DNA of 62,255 bases, taken from NCBI GenBank assembly GCA_948465965.1, contig CAOJYR010000006.1, forward strand, positions 1-62,255, written 5' to 3'. The DNA is from an uncultured Mycoplasmatota bacterium (GTDB lineage: Bacteria; Bacillota_I; Bacilli_A; RF39; UBA660). The notes under the pieces were generated by a model. The model was given only the letters and a program-made list of their open reading frames with translations, did not search any database and was not told where the DNA came from. Below, piece after piece: positions 19,052-59,611 of the stretch (position 1 is the stretch's first letter; every line of letters starts with the position of its first letter). The position numbers and the translations under genes were made by a program.

Positions 19052-19086
19052 AAAAATAACACCATAATAGAAGTAGAGGTGATTAT

Positions 19087-19254
19087 ATGGAAAAGAAAAC
19101 AAAAAAGAAAGTTATGATGGCTGCTGTTTTAGGAGGAATGGGAATGGCAGGTTATATGTATATGAAGAAAAATCCTGATGCTATTGATAATATGAAAGAC
19201 ATGGCAAAGGATGTAGCCAAAGCCACTTATAACAAATTAGAAGATATTGACTAA
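19087..19254 (+). CDS. small membrane-anchored protein (55 aa)
   Basis: MEKKTKKKVMMAAVLGGMGMAGYMYM... has one TM segment plus an amphipathic tail. SD AGAGGTGA upstream. A hairpin and T-run (about 19255-19285) follow. Not in the ORF track because it is under 60 aa. Confidence 0.45.
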   Translation: MEKKTKKKVMMAAVLGGMGMAGYMYMKKNPDAIDNMKDMAKDVAKATYNKLEDID

Positions 19255-54915: not shown

Positions 54916-54965
54916 TACTTTTCATATTTCAAAGTGTTATAATTATCATAGTGAGGAGTAATAAT

Positions 54966-57224
54966 ATGGCAAAGAAAAAAAAGAAAAAACAAACAAAAAA
55001 AGGCTTTGAATACAGTGCCGAATTATATGGAATAGTTCTACTTTTATGTTCAATACTAGGAATAGGTAAATATGGACCAGTTGGAAGATTAATTTCATCA
55101 TTTGCTCTTTTTTTAGTAGGATCTATATATATGGTATTTTTAGTAGTATTATTTATAGTAGGAGCCTATTTATTAGTAAAAAGAGAATGGCCAGACTTTT
55201 TTGAAACAAAATTAATTGGTTTATATGTTTTTACATTAGGTTTTTTAATAACTATGCATCAAAGTTTTATTGTACAAAACGATGGAAATATGATGATTAT
55301 ATTTAGAGAGACAATAAATCAATTAGTAGCTGCATTCAATGGTATTATGAATAATGGTGTTTTAGAAGATTGGTTTGCAGTAGGTGGTGGAATAGTAGGT
55401 GGGACCTTTGCTATTATTTTTGATAAGCTATTTTCATACACAGGTATGCAAATAGTATCCTGGGTTTTGATGATAGCAGGAGTTTGTTTATTCACTGGTT
55501 TTTCTATCATTGATTTTATAAAAGAAAAAGTAAGTCAAAGAAAAGGCAAAAAAGAAAAAGAACCTAAAAAAGAGAAAAAGTCATCTGTTATTATTAGTAA
55601 TGGCAACGAAGAAGATTCAAAAGAAAATGACAAACACATTAAGATTACAAGTATTGATGAAATAACAAAAGCCTCTCCAAAAGATATAAATCAAAATAAC
55701 ACAGAAGAAAAAAGCATACAAGAAAAACAGCTTATTTCTAGCAAGGATTATCAATTGCCACCCCTAAATATATTGGATAAACCAAAGAAAAGACAGAAAG
55801 ATACAGATAATGGCATAATTGAAAAAAATATAGAAACATTAGAAAGAGTATTAAAGGATTTTAAAATTATTGGTAAAGTTGTAGAGGTTCATATAGGTCC
55901 CACTGTTGCTCAATATGAACTTGAAATTGCAAGTGGTACCAGAGTAAATAAAATCACATCTATCAATAGAGAAATAGCCTTAGCATTAGCTAAGAAAGAT
56001 GTTCGTATAGAAGCACCAATTCCTGGAAAAAATACAGTAGGAATTGAATTTGCAAATGAAGTAGCAACACCAGTTAGCTTTTATGAAATTATCAGCAGCA
56101 AGTTAATGATGAATTCTATGAGCAAAAAATTAATGGTACCTCTTGGAAAAAGTATCATGGGAGATATTGGTGTTTGTGAAGTCAATAAAATGCCTCATAT
56201 GTTAATAGCTGGTACCACAGGTTCTGGTAAATCAGTTTGTGTTAATGGAATTATTTGTTCTATATTAATGAGAGCTCGTCCAGATGAAGTAAAGTTAGTT
56301 ATGGTTGACCCTAAAGTTGTCGAGTTATCAGTTTACAATGGAATCCCACATTTAATGTGCCCGGTTGTAACTGATCCCAAAAAAGCGGCTGTTGCTCTTG
56401 CTAAGATGGTAGCAGAAATGGAAAGACGTTACGAAGTATTTAGTGAAAGTAAAACAAAAAATATTGAAGGATATAATGATTATATTGATAAATGGAACAA
56501 AGAACATAAAGGCGATGAGGTAAAAAAAGCCCGTCTTCCATATATTGTTATTATAATAGACGAGTTAGCCGACTTAATGATGGTAGCTGCTAAAGAAGTA
56601 GAAGATTCAATTCTAAGAATCACTCAAAAAGCACGTGCAGCCGGAATTCATTTAATAGTAGCAACACAACGTCCTTCAACTGAGGTAATCACAGGTTTAA
56701 TTAAAGCAAATATTCCTTCACGTATCTCATTTGCAGTTGGATCAGGAATTGATTCTAGAACGATATTAGACCAAACAGGTGCTGAAAAATTATTAGGAAA
56801 AGGAGATATGTTGTTTCTACCAATCGGTATGAATTCTCCAATTCGTATTCAAGGTTCATTTATAACAGACGATGAAATCAAAAGAATCATTGATTATACA
56901 GTAGAACAACAAAAAGCACAATATGATGATTCCTTATTAAATCTAGATGTAGTGGATGCAAATGATAAAAGTAGTGGTTCAATAGATAATGATACTACAA
57001 CCGATAGTGATGATCCACTATATAATGACATCGTAAAATTTGTAATAGAAACCCAAAAAGCAAGCGCTTCCCTTTTACAAAGAAGGTTTAAATTAGGATA
57101 TAATAGAGCAGCACGTATTATAGATCTCTTAGAAGAACGTGGTGTAATTGGGCCACCTAATGGATCAAAACCGCGTGAAGTATTAGTACAATTAGGTAAC
57201 AATGAAGAAGTAAATGACGAATAA
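54966..57224 (+). CDS. ftsK: DNA translocase FtsK/SpoIIIE
   Basis: N-terminal TM segments, a linker, the motor domain with Walker A GTTGSGKS and a C-terminal gamma (winged-helix) domain LLQRRFKLGYNRAARIID. ATG 54966 follows GAGGAG. Confidence 0.9.
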   Translation: MAKKKKKKQTKKGFEYSAELYGIVLLLCSILGIGKYGPVGRLISSFALFLVGSIYMVFLVVLFIVGAYLLVKREWPDFFETKLIGLYVFTLGFLITMHQSFIVQNDGNMMIIFRETINQLVAAFNGIMNNGVLEDWFAVGGGIVGGTFAIIFDKLFSYTGMQIVSWVLMIAGVCLFTGFSIIDFIKEKVSQRKGKKEKEPKKEKKSSVIISNGNEEDSKENDKHIKITSIDEITKASPKDINQNNTEEKSIQEKQLISSKDYQLPPLNILDKPKKRQKDTDNGIIEKNIETLERVLKDFKIIGKVVEVHIGPTVAQYELEIASGTRVNKITSINREIALALAKKDVRIEAPIPGKNTVGIEFANEVATPVSFYEIISSKLMMNSMSKKLMVPLGKSIMGDIGVCEVNKMPHMLIAGTTGSGKSVCVNGIICSILMRARPDEVKLVMVDPKVVELSVYNGIPHLMCPVVTDPKKAAVALAKMVAEMERRYEVFSESKTKNIEGYNDYIDKWNKEHKGDEVKKARLPYIVIIIDELADLMMVAAKEVEDSILRITQKARAAGIHLIVATQRPSTEVITGLIKANIPSRISFAVGSGIDSRTILDQTGAEKLLGKGDMLFLPIGMNSPIRIQGSFITDDEIKRIIDYTVEQQKAQYDDSLLNLDVVDANDKSSGSIDNDTTTDSDDPLYNDIVKFVIETQKASASLLQRRFKLGYNRAARIIDLLEERGVIGPPNGSKPREVLVQLGNNEEVNDE

Positions 57225-57271: not shown

Positions 57272-57280
57272 TGGTATAAT
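57272..57280 (+). promoter_or_regulatory. extended -10 promoter of the retron cassette
   Basis: TGGTATAAT. The -35 is weak. It sits immediately downstream of the ftsK terminator. Confidence 0.55.
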
Positions 57281-57286
57281 AGCATC

Positions 57287-57458
57287 AAGAGCAATAGTGA
57301 ATGGATTTATCCTACTTTAGCGACTCGTTAAAGGACAAAAGAATTAGAATCAAATAATAGTAATATTTCAAAGGGCACTACTACACGTTGTGTAGAACGC
57401 TTCATTGCATTACGCTTTTAAGCCCATTTCCATATTACAATATCAATAAGTATTGCTC
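57287..57458 (+). ncRNA. candidate retron msr-msd non-coding RNA
   Basis: Structured leader of about 170 nt directly upstream of, and co-oriented with, a retron-type RT. Terminal inverted repeats are GAGCAATA (57289-57296) and TATTGCTC (57451-57458). Internal hairpins lie at 57315-57333 and 57381-57395, and GGGC/GCCC pair at 57373-57376 and 57422-57425. The boundaries are approximate. Confidence 0.5.
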
Positions 57459-57476
57459 CAAAAGGAGGTAATAAAA

Positions 57477-58427
57477 ATGTGGAAATACATTAGTAAAGAG
57501 CAAGAAAAAGAATTTTTATTATCTCTAAATTTAATAGATAATAAACTGACAGATAAAGAAAAAATAATAAAAATTTATTCTATCAGTAATAACATAAAGA
57601 ACAATTATAAAATTTATAAAATACCAAAGCATAATGGAAAGAAAAGACTTATTTATGAACCAAGCACCACCCTAAAACATATTCAAAGACAAATATTAAC
57701 CAACATTTTAGAAAACAAAAGTATTTCTGAATATGCAAAGGCATACTGCAAAGGTATATCTTTGAAAAAGAGTGCCTTGCCACACCTAAATAAAAAAACA
57801 GTCTTAAAACTAGATATTAAAGATTTTTTCAATCACATTAATTTTATCGATATTTATAATTCCTGTTTTCCAATAGAATATTTTCCAAAGCCAATTGGTA
57901 TACTATTAACTTATCTTTGTACATATGAAAATCACTTACCACAAGGCGCTCCAACGTCAGCCTATATTTCGAATTTAGTCCTAAAGGAGTTTGATGAGAA
58001 AATAGGAAGATTATGTTTTGAGAAAAACATTTCTTACACCAGATATTCGGATGATATGACTTTTTCTGGAGACTTTAACCCAACAGATATAATCAAAGTT
58101 GTAAAAAAAGAATTACACAAGTATAAGTTAGAGATTAATAAAGACAAAATACATGTAATCAAGAAAAACAATAGACAAACAGTAACAGGAATAGTTGTTA
58201 ATAAAAAAATGCAAGTATCAAGAGATTACAGAAAGAAAATAAGGAAAGAAATATATTATATTAAAAAGTATGGATTACCCTTCCATTTAAATAAAATAAA
58301 ATATGAGGGTAATCCAGAAAAATATTTAAAAAGTTTATATGGAAAAGTCTTATATGTTTTGCAGATAAACAAAGAAGATAAAGAATTTAATTTATATAAA
58401 AGGTATTTGGAGACACTATATGGATAA
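57477..58427 (+). CDS. retron-type reverse transcriptase
   Basis: 316 aa from ATG 57477 (SD AAAGGAGG 57461-57468). Motifs: LKLDIKDFF, LPQGAPTSAYISNL, YTRYSDD (58035-58055) and RQTVTGIVVN (VTG at 58182-58190). Size and motif set fit retron RTs; no maturase or endonuclease domains are present. Confidence 0.8.
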   Translation: MWKYISKEQEKEFLLSLNLIDNKLTDKEKIIKIYSISNNIKNNYKIYKIPKHNGKKRLIYEPSTTLKHIQRQILTNILENKSISEYAKAYCKGISLKKSALPHLNKKTVLKLDIKDFFNHINFIDIYNSCFPIEYFPKPIGILLTYLCTYENHLPQGAPTSAYISNLVLKEFDEKIGRLCFEKNISYTRYSDDMTFSGDFNPTDIIKVVKKELHKYKLEINKDKIHVIKKNNRQTVTGIVVNKKMQVSRDYRKKIRKEIYYIKKYGLPFHLNKIKYEGNPEKYLKSLYGKVLYVLQINKEDKEFNLYKRYLETLYG

Positions 58428-58611
58428 ACGAATTTTTAACAAATATATGAACGAACAAATTATACAAAAAATAGGTATCTTAGGAGAATGTTTTAGCATA
58501 AATATAGATGAATGGCATCCAGCAAAGGAAAATAGTAAATATCCACATCGTATTTATTTTTATCAAGAAAACAATATTGTTGGTTATATAGATGCAAATA
58601 CAAGAAACTAA
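58420..58611 (+). CDS. small retron-associated ORF (63 aa), possibly the 5' half of an interrupted 127-codon gene
   Basis: Its ATG overlaps the RT stop (ATGGATAA, 8-nt overlap). No TM segment and no recognised domain. The same frame stays open for 64 more codons after the TAA at 58609 (to TAA at 58804-58806). Confidence 0.5.
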   Translation: MDKRIFNKYMNEQIIQKIGILGECFSINIDEWHPAKENSKYPHRIYFYQENNIVGYIDANTRN

Positions 58612-58894
58612 AAACAATTAATCTTTGAGACTGATCAGAAGACTGTATCTTTATATGATAATTTTTTATACCAATGTTTTAAAAATAAAAACCAAGAGTT
58701 CTATGATCAATTTTATAGATACATAGTAAAGGGAAAGGAACAAAAGGAATTACAAAAAACAAAATCACAACTAATTAAAAAGAGAAATAACTTCTCGATC
58801 AATTAATATTATGGAGATAAATTCTCTTTTTCTTTATGGTTGTTTATTTTTAGCTAATTTGCTATACTGAATATGGTAGAAAGAAGGTATGATT

Positions 58895-59611
58895 ATGGCA
58901 ACACCACATATAGAAAGTAAAAAAGAAGAGATAGCAAAAGTAGTACTAATGCCTGGAGATCCACTTCGTGCGAAATATATTGCAGAAAAGTTTTTGAATG
59001 ATTATAAATTAATTAATACAGTACGTAATATGTTTGGATATACTGGGTATTATAAAGGAAAAGAAGTAACAGTATTTGCATCAGGTATGGGAGTACCAAG
59101 TATTGGGATTTATTCTTATGAATTGTATAAATACTATGATGTAGAAAAAATAATTAGAATTGGAACAAGCGGTTCTTTTAATAAAGATATAAAAATATTA
59201 GATGTAGTTTTATCAGAAGGTAGTTTTTGTAAAAGTTATTTTGATAAATTATTAGATGATAATGATGTAGACTACATTGAATCTAGCAAAGAACTAAACA
59301 ACAGTATTATATCGAAATCAAAAGAAAAAAACATACCAATTAAATATGGAAAAACAATAACCAGTGATGTTTTTGACTTGTATTGTGATAATGAAGATGA
59401 TTTTAGAGAAAACTTCCCAAAAGAAGAGAACTATTTAGCAGTAGAAATGGAAGCGTTTGGACTATTCTATATTGCGAAAAAATTAAATAAAGAGGCTGCC
59501 TGTCTAATGACAGTTGTTGATTCCCTATATGATAAAAGGAGTCTAACTAGTGAAGAAAGGGAAAAGTCACTTGATGAAATGATTACTTTAGCACTTGATG
59601 CTGCTTTATAA
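58895..59611 (+). CDS. deoD: purine nucleoside phosphorylase, DeoD-type
   Basis: MATPHI...VVLMPGDPLRAKYIAEKFL...GMGVPS...IRIGTSGS...EMEAFGLF. ATG 58895 is 7 nt after AGAAGG. Confidence 0.9.
   Translation: MATPHIESKKEEIAKVVLMPGDPLRAKYIAEKFLNDYKLINTVRNMFGYTGYYKGKEVTVFASGMGVPSIGIYSYELYKYYDVEKIIRIGTSGSFNKDIKILDVVLSEGSFCKSYFDKLLDDNDVDYIESSKELNNSIISKSKEKNIPIKYGKTITSDVFDLYCDNEDDFRENFPKEENYLAVEMEAFGLFYIAKKLNKEAACLMTVVDSLYDKRSLTSEEREKSLDEMITLALDAAL

What the first reader, a model, noticed from the sequence alone, without database searches (positions are those of the whole stretch)
58420..58806. Retron partner gene is split by a single in-frame TAA (63 + 64 codons)
The ORF starting at 58420 stops at TAA 58609-58611. 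The same frame then continues with no stop for 64 further sense codons: KQLIFETDQKTVSLYDNFLYQCFKNKNQEFYDQFYRYIVKGKEQKELQKTKSQLIKKRNNFSIN, ending at TAA 58804-58806.

That downstream stretch contains no ATG, GTG or TTG in frame and has no SD, so it cannot be an independent gene. In DNA this AT-rich, non-coding frames are normally closed every few tens of codons. A 64-codon open continuation therefore argues that this was recently one 127-codon gene.

The possible explanations are:
- a nonsense mutation inactivating a toxic effector, a common fate for defense genes;
- a sequencing error;
- stop-codon readthrough, which is much less likely.
Basis: seen in the sequence. Interest (0 to 1): 0.65.

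Follow-up and report, generated by a model that had tools for sequence, protein, structure and literature searches.

The report
Gutted gene remnant beside a retron
The two 63- and 64-codon pieces are the head and tail of a roughly 320-codon gene of unknown function that has lost its middle 200 codons, so this is an ordinary dead gene next to a retron and not a small gene switched off by one stop codon.

Summary
ORF 58420-58611 (63 codons) ends at TAA, and the same frame stays open for 64 more codons to TAA 58804-58806, with no ATG, GTG or TTG. The chance of this is about 0.001-0.002.

An exhaustive search matched the 63-aa piece to the first ~60 residues of an uncharacterised family of 304-342-aa proteins (E down to 2e-16). 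A family profile matched the 64-aa piece to positions 266-319 of 323 (E 2e-6; 24.6 bits against at most 13.3 in 5000 shuffles). The locus is therefore a remnant with an in-frame loss of about 200 central codons, which hold almost the whole beta-rich core of the predicted fold.

The TAA sits on the deletion joint. It occupies the slot of a conserved Arg (AGA) of the tail, and a related strain stops matching the window inside this codon. The joint probably created the stop. An independent assembly reproduces the joint, so it is not an error.

Reverting the TAA would not restore a gene. The family is also not a recognised retron partner: relatives in ten loci (about five genomic settings) lie away from any RT, and 11 related RT loci lack it. 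The retron itself (Ec107-like RT plus conserved ncRNA) looks intact.

The parts
57272..57280 (+). Extended -10 promoter element (TGgTATAAT) ahead of the retron ncRNA
   Evidence: Read from the sequence. A TATAAT-like box is conserved in this column of the alignment of eight related loci. Function is inferred.
57288..57459 (+). Retron non-coding RNA (msr-msd). The a1 arm 57290-57298 pairs with the a2 arm 57449-57457, and there is a long msd stem with a CTACAC/GTGTAG hairpin.
   Evidence: Strongly conserved upstream of RT relatives in seven other loci. The RNAalifold consensus has 39 pairs, 20 of them with a compensatory double change. No Rfam family matches.
57477..58427 (+). Retron reverse transcriptase, 316 aa, apparently intact (YSDD at 190, VTG at 236)
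   Evidence: PADLOC RT_Ec107-like, E 2.2e-125, covering 2-306 of 307 profile positions. Pfam RVT_1, E 3e-21. 4360 relatives at E<=1e-40, the closest 71% identical. Motifs.
58420..58611 (+). Head of the remnant gene: 63 codons plus TAA, equal to family positions 1-62. The start overlaps the RT stop by 8 nt, with a GGAG at 58409-58412.
   Evidence: phmmer against 1.84 billion proteins gave 24 hits at E<=1e-3. Nearly all are the N-terminal ~60 residues of 304-342-aa proteins; P0122 is 59% identical, E 2e-16. The family HMM gives E 1e-28.
58609..58614 (+). Deletion joint carrying the TAA stop
   Evidence: The HMM alignments of the two halves abut here. The TAA lies 14 residues before the conserved YD, exactly where six homologues have Arg AGA. 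The X7 contig is collinear with the window up to about T58609, has both of its two mismatches in 58610-58614, and then runs on for 161 nt of unlike sequence.
58612..58806 (+). Tail of the remnant gene: 64 codons plus TAA, equal to family positions about 266-319 of 323. No start codon of its own.
   Evidence: Family HMM E 2.3e-6 among 2950 six-frame ORFs, with no other hit in the window. hhalign E 1e-5 on columns 267-301. BLASTP E 3e-5 to P0123 residues 263-285. 24.6 bits against a maximum of 13.3 in 5000 shuffles. In 27 of 32 family members the best local alignment falls in the last ~70 residues.
58757..58851 (+). AT-rich hairpin across the tail's stop codon, followed by a T-rich run; probably the old gene's terminator
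   Evidence: Inverted repeat I2 with 30-nt arms. RNA fold -19.3 kcal/mol, z = -3.25 against shuffles. It is not called by the strict terminator scan, so this is an inference.

Best explanation
The stretch 58420-58806 is a pseudogene. It is the first ~63 and last ~64 codons of a roughly 320-codon gene from an uncharacterised Firmicutes protein family. They were joined by an in-frame deletion of about 200 codons (about 600 nt).

The deletion removed nearly all of the predicted beta-rich core and the first helices of the C-terminal bundle. The joint falls inside a codon. 'TA' probably comes from a Tyr codon of the head and 'A' from the conserved Arg AGA of the tail, which together make the TAA. 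One event would then explain both the stop and the open continuation.

What can still be made is at most a 63-residue N-terminal fragment. It would be translated by coupling to the RT, since its SD and ATG overlap the RT's end. The tail is untranslated 3' sequence ending at the old terminator.

The neighbouring retron (promoter, ncRNA, RT) is intact. It belongs to the Ec107-like 'orphan' branch, which as a rule has no adjacent effector.

Shown: homology of both halves, their order and frame, the missing middle, and reproduction of the joint. Inferred: the exact joint, that the joint made the stop, that the fragment has no function, and whether the full-length gene ever worked with the retron.
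For: - The head matches family residues 1-62 (HMM E 1e-28).
- The tail matches positions 266-319 (HMM E 2.3e-6; hhalign E 1e-5; BLASTP E 3e-5; shuffle control; consistent placement in 27 of 32 pairwise alignments).
- No trace of the middle appears in any frame of the window.
- The AlphaFold model of the family (pLDDT 84.7, pTM 0.85) places strands 60-220 and helices 233-263 in the deleted part.
- The TAA sits in the slot of the conserved AGA Arg, with the same 14-residue spacing to YD as in six homologues. P0124 reads 'RKQLTF' where the window reads '*KQLIF'.
- Several homologues have Tyr after the head's last Asn: P0128 and P0129 read N-Y directly after it, and P0152 has Tyr at the position that lines up with the stop.
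- The contig from a related strain (X7) follows the window to about 58609 and then diverges.
- An independent assembly (X1) spans the joint without any difference.
Against: - No full-length orthologue from the same lineage could be read. Only 30 nt of the X7 continuation are visible, and its resemblance to the family is not frame-specific (+1.3 to +3.4 bits in all three frames).
- The position of the X7 mismatches is deduced from what the tool lists, not read directly.
- The tail is only about 30-40% identical to family members, and its last 25 residues align loosely.
- A separate nonsense mutation next to the joint cannot be excluded.
- X1 may be the run the genome was assembled from. If so, it checks the assembler but not the sample.
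Confidence: 0.85

Rival explanations
1. One reading: a 127-codon retron effector gene inactivated by a single nonsense mutation at codon 64. Reverting the TAA would restore it.
For: One frame, 63 + 64 codons, no start codon in the second half, and an open stretch unlikely by chance.
Against: No protein of about 127 aa covers both halves contiguously. The only 127-aa hit (P0134) is a contiguous N-terminal fragment of the long family. The halves map to positions 1-62 and 266-319 of a 323-position profile. The fused query found nothing in 5.8 billion proteins.
Confidence: 0.03
2. Two separate lesions: an ordinary point nonsense mutation (for example TAT/TAC to TAA) in the head, plus an independent in-frame deletion starting 1-2 codons later. 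They could have occurred in either order.
For: The aligner carries the X7 match formally to 58614, so 'TAAAAA' could be head sequence. Pseudogenes accumulate several lesions.
Against: Two independent lesions within 6 nt in a 387-nt remnant would be a coincidence of a few per cent. Both X7 mismatches lie in 58610-58614, so real collinearity ends at about 58609. The spacing of the tail places the TAA in the Arg slot.
Confidence: 0.25
3. Sequencing or assembly artefact: either the TAA is a base error, or the deletion is a collapse in the assembly.
For: Coverage in the one run that holds it is low (word depth about 3.7).
Against: A 275-nt contig from a different assembler spans 58415-58689 with zero differences. 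Any repeat at the joint is at most about 5 nt, too short to collapse a 31-mer graph. A base error would not explain the missing 200 codons.
Confidence: 0.02
4. The shortened locus is functional. Either the 63-aa head acts as a small protein coupled to the RT, or readthrough of the TAA gives a 127-aa head-tail mini-protein that serves the retron.
For: The head keeps its SD, its start and a gene-like codon score (0.30). The 80 nt seen in X7 are 97.5% identical (78 of 80 bases), against 87-96% in the other X7 pieces laid on the window. The frame is preserved across the joint.
Against: The head is two helices and about three strands torn from a larger sheet in the model. A preserved frame is expected by chance in one deletion out of three. 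There is no recoding signal and no second example. Only 80 nt of comparison are available, and young pseudogenes also look conserved.
Confidence: 0.07

Closest known systems
Retron-Eco5 (Ec107) branch of retron RTs ('orphan' retrons; Mestre et al. 2020, PMC7736814; PADLOC model RT_Ec107-like)
   Same: The RT matches the clade model end to end (E 2e-125). The ncRNA lies directly upstream, with a1/a2 arms and an msd stem supported by covariation. As in that branch, relatives carry no conserved neighbouring effector: only two of the 11 related loci (L006/L007, one arrangement) have any coupled downstream ORF, and it is unrelated.
   Different: Here the RT's last codons overlap the start of a further gene, now a remnant, which belongs to a family not reported with retrons. 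msDNA production was not tested.
Uncharacterised ~304-342-aa Firmicutes protein family (P0122, P0147, P0152, P0155 and others; no Pfam, NCBIfam, PADLOC or PDB match)
   Same: The head is 40-59% identical to the family's N-terminus. The tail matches its C-terminal helices, including the conserved S-[IL]-Y-D motif.
   Different: The window copy lacks positions about 63-265 and carries a stop at the joint. Intact members lie after a peptidase M29 gene, alone, or in an operon of DUF87 (HerA-like) ATPase, a 229-aa protein, the family gene and a DAO/Rieske oxidoreductase. They do not lie next to an RT.
Decayed or inactivated defence-system effectors (pseudogenised toxin genes next to an intact sensor module)
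   Same: A broken gene sits immediately downstream of an intact retron RT and is translationally coupled to it.
   Different: There is no evidence that this family is toxic or defence-related. It has no PADLOC hit, is absent from phage, plasmid and IMG/VR collections, and is not found beside other RTs.

Membership tests
Retron (Ec107-like / Retron-Eco5 branch) | Reverse transcriptase of the retron clade with catalytic YxDD and the VTG motif | tested here: met
   PADLOC RT_Ec107-like E 2.2e-125, 2-306 of 307 positions. YSDD at 190 and VTG at 236.
Retron (Ec107-like / Retron-Eco5 branch) | Adjacent structured ncRNA (msr-msd) with inverted a1/a2 arms | tested here: met
   Conserved upstream of eight related RTs. 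39 consensus pairs, 20 with compensatory changes.
Retron (Ec107-like / Retron-Eco5 branch) | Production of msDNA | not testable with these tools
   Needs an experiment. No RNA or DNA run covers it usefully.
Tripartite retron with a dedicated effector (the 'retron partner gene' of the finding) | The neighbouring gene family recurs next to RTs of the same clade | tested here: not met
   The family HMM finds no hit in the 11 related RT loci L001-L011. In the 12 family loci fetched (L012-L023), no RT gene is called beside the family gene. Mestre 2020 reports no associated cluster for this branch.
Uncharacterised ~320-aa family (P0122/P0147 type) | N-terminal helices and first strands (profile positions 1-62) | tested here: met
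   HMM E 1e-28; 59% identity to P0122.
Uncharacterised ~320-aa family (P0122/P0147 type) | Central beta-rich core (positions about 63-265) | tested here: not met
   There is no room for it between 58608 and 58612, and no hit in any other frame of the window. In the model these are strands 60-220 and helices 233-263.
Uncharacterised ~320-aa family (P0122/P0147 type) | C-terminal helical segment with the S-[IL]-Y-D motif (positions about 266-319) | tested here: met
   HMM E 2.3e-6, hhalign E 1e-5, BLASTP E 3e-5, shuffle control.
Gene split by a single nonsense codon | Homologues cover both halves contiguously, with a sense codon at the stop position | tested here: not met
   Homologues have about 200 residues between the two matched parts.
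Programmed stop-codon readthrough / recoding | The stop and a constrained downstream frame are conserved in relatives, with a recoding signal | tested here: inconclusive
   The only relative seen (X7) departs from the window inside the stop codon, and none of its contigs lays on the tail at a likeness of 80 in 100 or more. Coverage is patchy, however.

The most novel reading that the evidence does not exclude
The ~320-aa family may be a so far unrecognised effector recruited by an 'orphan' Ec107-like retron in this mouse-gut lineage. It is translationally coupled to the RT and possibly still full-length in the related strain seen in run X7. The window would then show its recent loss by deletion. 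That would give a first candidate partner for the retron branch that Mestre et al. left without one. It would also link it to a protein that elsewhere sits in an operon with a HerA-like ATPase.
Probability: 0.15. Interest if true: 0.55.

Novelty: new member of a known kind. Interest (0 to 1): 0.25.

Why it matters
Mainly this corrects the annotation and the proposed experiment. The locus is a deletion remnant, so 'repairing' the stop codon would test nothing. The retron should be filed as an Ec107-like orphan retron without a working neighbour.

Two smaller points may interest specialists:
- An orphan-branch RT is here fused in operon fashion to a gene of an unknown family whose predicted fold has no solved counterpart.
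- The stop codon was probably generated by a deletion joint. An in-frame stop followed by an open frame can therefore mark a large internal deletion and not a point mutation.

Tried and rejected
- **Fused 127-aa query.** It found nothing in the word-indexed 5.8-billion-protein search, in Pfam or PADLOC, in phages or plasmids, or in IMG/VR. I therefore searched the 63-aa half alone, and that search was the decisive one.
- **Link to the L006 ORF.** The 138-aa ORF that follows a 70%-identical RT in L006 looked similar by eye ('GYIGAETFAEL' against 'GYIDANTRN*KQL'). Alignment scores are at shuffle level (z = 0.3), so I rejected the link.
- **Codon-usage scoring of the tail.** Inconclusive.
- **Exact-sequence look-ups.** The RT and the 63-aa ORF found no other contig. 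The 63-aa protein is alone in its 90% cluster.
- **Reading the X7 continuation as proof of an intact orthologue.** The 10 visible codons fit the family equally well in all three frames, because of a TATATA run. I kept this only as 'compatible'.
- **Other runs.** X3, X5, X6, X8 (a metatranscriptome) and X9 gave no coverage of 58406-58850.
- **Fold and sequence searches of the family.** PDB gave no assignment. NCBIfam and PADLOC gave none.
- **Rfam.** It has no model matching the ncRNA.

Full report
**Observation**

The sequence is as described. ATG 58420 opens a 63-codon ORF that ends at TAA 58609-58611. The same frame then runs through 64 sense codons (KQLIFETDQ...NNFSIN) to TAA 58804-58806, with no in-frame ATG, GTG or TTG. 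The ATG overlaps the stop of the upstream gene by 8 nt (..CTA TAT GGA TAA) and has a GGAG seven bases upstream.

The open continuation is unlikely by chance. The probability is 0.0021 from the window's base composition, 0.0015 from local composition, and 0.00115 in shuffles. After the 67 long ORFs of the window, the next in-frame open stretch never exceeds 49 codons, except in five cases of 214-774 codons, too long to be chance open stretches.

Codon usage is gene-like for the first half (0.30; genic mean 0.35). It is ambiguous for the second half (0.02; mean for non-coding open frames -0.24).

**Surroundings**

- Upstream lies ftsK (54951-57224).
- A promoter-like TGgTATAAT follows at 57272-57280.
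- Next comes a structured RNA at about 57288-57459.
- Then comes a 316-aa reverse transcriptase (57477-58427). It matches PADLOC RT_Ec107-like at E 2e-125 over the whole model and keeps YSDD and VTG.
- The RNA is strongly conserved upstream of RT relatives in seven other loci. It folds with a1/a2 arms and a long msd stem, and 20 of 39 pairs show compensatory changes.
- Downstream of the finding lie a terminator-like AT-rich hairpin (58757-58851, z = -3.25), deoD (58889-59611) and two M16 peptidase genes.

The retron is therefore real and looks intact.

**What the two halves are**

The fused 127-aa sequence has no relatives in the word-indexed search, Pfam, PADLOC, phage or plasmid records, or IMG/VR. 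The exhaustive HMMER search accepts only exact window sequences, so I ran it with the 63-aa half. It returned 24 hits at E<=1e-3. Nearly all are the N-terminal ~60 residues of proteins 304-342 aa long; P0122 is 59% identical at E 2e-16.

The 64-aa half matches the C-terminal part of the same proteins:
- hhalign against an 18-member alignment: E 1e-5, columns 267-301.
- BLASTP: E 3e-5 to P0123 residues 263-285.
- A 32-member family HMM searched against all 2950 six-frame ORFs of the window and 11 RT loci finds exactly two hits. The first half hits at positions 1-62 (E 1e-28) and the second half at positions 266-319 of 323 (E 2.3e-6).
- The second half scores 24.6 bits, against at most 13.3 in 5000 shuffles.
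- In 27 of 32 pairwise alignments its best match falls in the last ~70 residues.

The locus is therefore the head and tail of a roughly 320-codon gene, with about 200 codons (about 600 nt) missing in frame.

**What was lost**

An AlphaFold model of the family (pLDDT 84.7, pTM 0.85) shows two N-terminal helices, about sixteen strands between residues 31 and 220, and a C-terminal helical bundle (233-322). The deletion removes strands 60-220 and helices 233-263. The original fold cannot survive this. Reverting the TAA would not restore a gene.

**The stop codon and the joint**

In the six homologues for which I have DNA, a conserved Arg encoded by AGA lies 14 residues before the conserved YD. The window has its TAA exactly there, also 14 residues before YD. 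P0124 reads 'RKQLTF' where the window reads '*KQLIF'. On the head side, several homologues have Tyr after the last Asn: P0128 and P0129 read N-Y directly after it, and P0152 has Tyr at the position that lines up with the stop.

A 241-nt contig of run X7 comes from a related strain whose pieces are 87-96% identical to the window across the region. It follows the window from 58535 and then runs on for 161 nt of unlike sequence. I cut the reference at 58545. The contig still showed two mismatches, and none was listed as lying away from an end. Both mismatches must therefore lie in 58610-58614.

Real collinearity thus ends at about T58609, inside the stop codon. The simplest reading is one in-frame deletion joined as TA|A: TA from a Tyr codon and A from AGA. 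That joint itself created the TAA. A separate point mutation beside the joint remains possible; I give it about one chance in four.

**Artefact?**

A 275-nt Logan contig of run X1 spans 58415-58689 without a single difference. A repeat of at most five bases cannot collapse a 31-mer graph. I consider an error very unlikely, although X1 may be the source run of the genome.

**Is it a retron partner?**

Mestre et al. 2020 state that the Retron-Eco5 (Ec107) branch has no associated protein cluster.

My sample agrees. The RT relatives of 49-71% identity (L001-L003, L005, L008-L011) end next to unrelated or convergent genes. Only L006/L007 has a coupled downstream ORF: a 138-aa protein followed by a NUDIX gene. 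That protein is unrelated to the window's remnant.

Conversely, the 12 family loci fetched show the family gene in other settings, and none has an RT called beside it:
- after a peptidase M29 gene;
- alone;
- inside an operon of DUF87 ATPase, a 229-aa protein, the family gene and a DAO/Rieske oxidoreductase.

The family has no Pfam, NCBIfam, PADLOC, PDB-sequence or PDB-fold match, and it is absent from the phage, plasmid and IMG/VR collections.

The tight overlap with the RT, and the presence of both a related RT piece and the head in X7, leave a small chance (about 0.15) that this lineage had recruited the protein as an effector. Nothing tested here supports toxicity or a defence role.

**How it works now**

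This part is inference. The retron promoter drives the ncRNA and the RT. Ribosomes finishing the RT can restart at 58420 and make a 63-residue fragment, probably unstable. The tail is untranslated and ends at the old terminator.

**Verdict**

This is an ordinary pseudogene of an unknown family beside an orphan retron. Interest is low to moderate.

Noticed in passing
L006 3448-4408 (also L007 1397-2357): An RT 70% identical to the window's, and of the same length, is followed by a 138-aa ORF that overlaps its stop by 4 nt. A NUDIX gene then overlaps that ORF. The 138-aa protein (MKKIVIAGSAK...GYIGAETFAEL) has no Pfam hit and only weak PADLOC hits (AbiO/Nhi region, E 1e-4). This may be a lineage-specific effector module in an 'orphan' retron branch.
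   Followed up: partly
L018 463-5433; L019; L021-L023: The ~320-aa family recurs in a co-directional, partly overlapping gene row: a DUF87/HerA-like ATPase (624 aa; PADLOC mad8 3e-12, HerA 3e-10), a 229-aa protein with no family, the family gene, and a DAO + Rieske oxidoreductase. L020 also has the DAO/Rieske gene directly downstream. The function is unknown.
   Followed up: partly
Model m648650e44f45 (P0147, family of the remnant): A confident AlphaFold model (pLDDT 84.7, pTM 0.85) with a long beta meander between helical ends. It has no significant fold match in the PDB (best Foldseek E 0.11, TM <= 0.24) and no sequence match to any solved structure.
   Followed up: yes
window 57424-57541, against a 14,993-nt contig of run X3 (word depth 97.6): A much more abundant organism in another mouse-gut sample of the same study carries a related retron. 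The end of its ncRNA and the start of its RT are about 80% alike with small indels. Retrons of this clade therefore appear to be present in several mouse-gut bacteria.
   Followed up: no
window 57477-58427: The RT's codon-usage score (0.16) is well below the window's genic mean (0.35), and its GC content is 22-30%, against 31-36% at the 3' end of ftsK. This fits horizontal acquisition of the retron cassette between ftsK and deoD.
   Followed up: no
window 58425-58427 / 58420-58428: The RT's stop codon is supplied by codons 2-3 of the neighbouring gene (ATG GAT AAA read as ..T ATG GAT AA). MDK(R/K) is the conserved start of that family in other genomes. The RT reading frame therefore terminates inside a conserved foreign start region.
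   Followed up: partly
window 19060-19254 (+): A 64-codon open stretch with the highest coding score of all short open frames in the window (0.60). It is probably a real small gene. I did not examine it.
   Followed up: no
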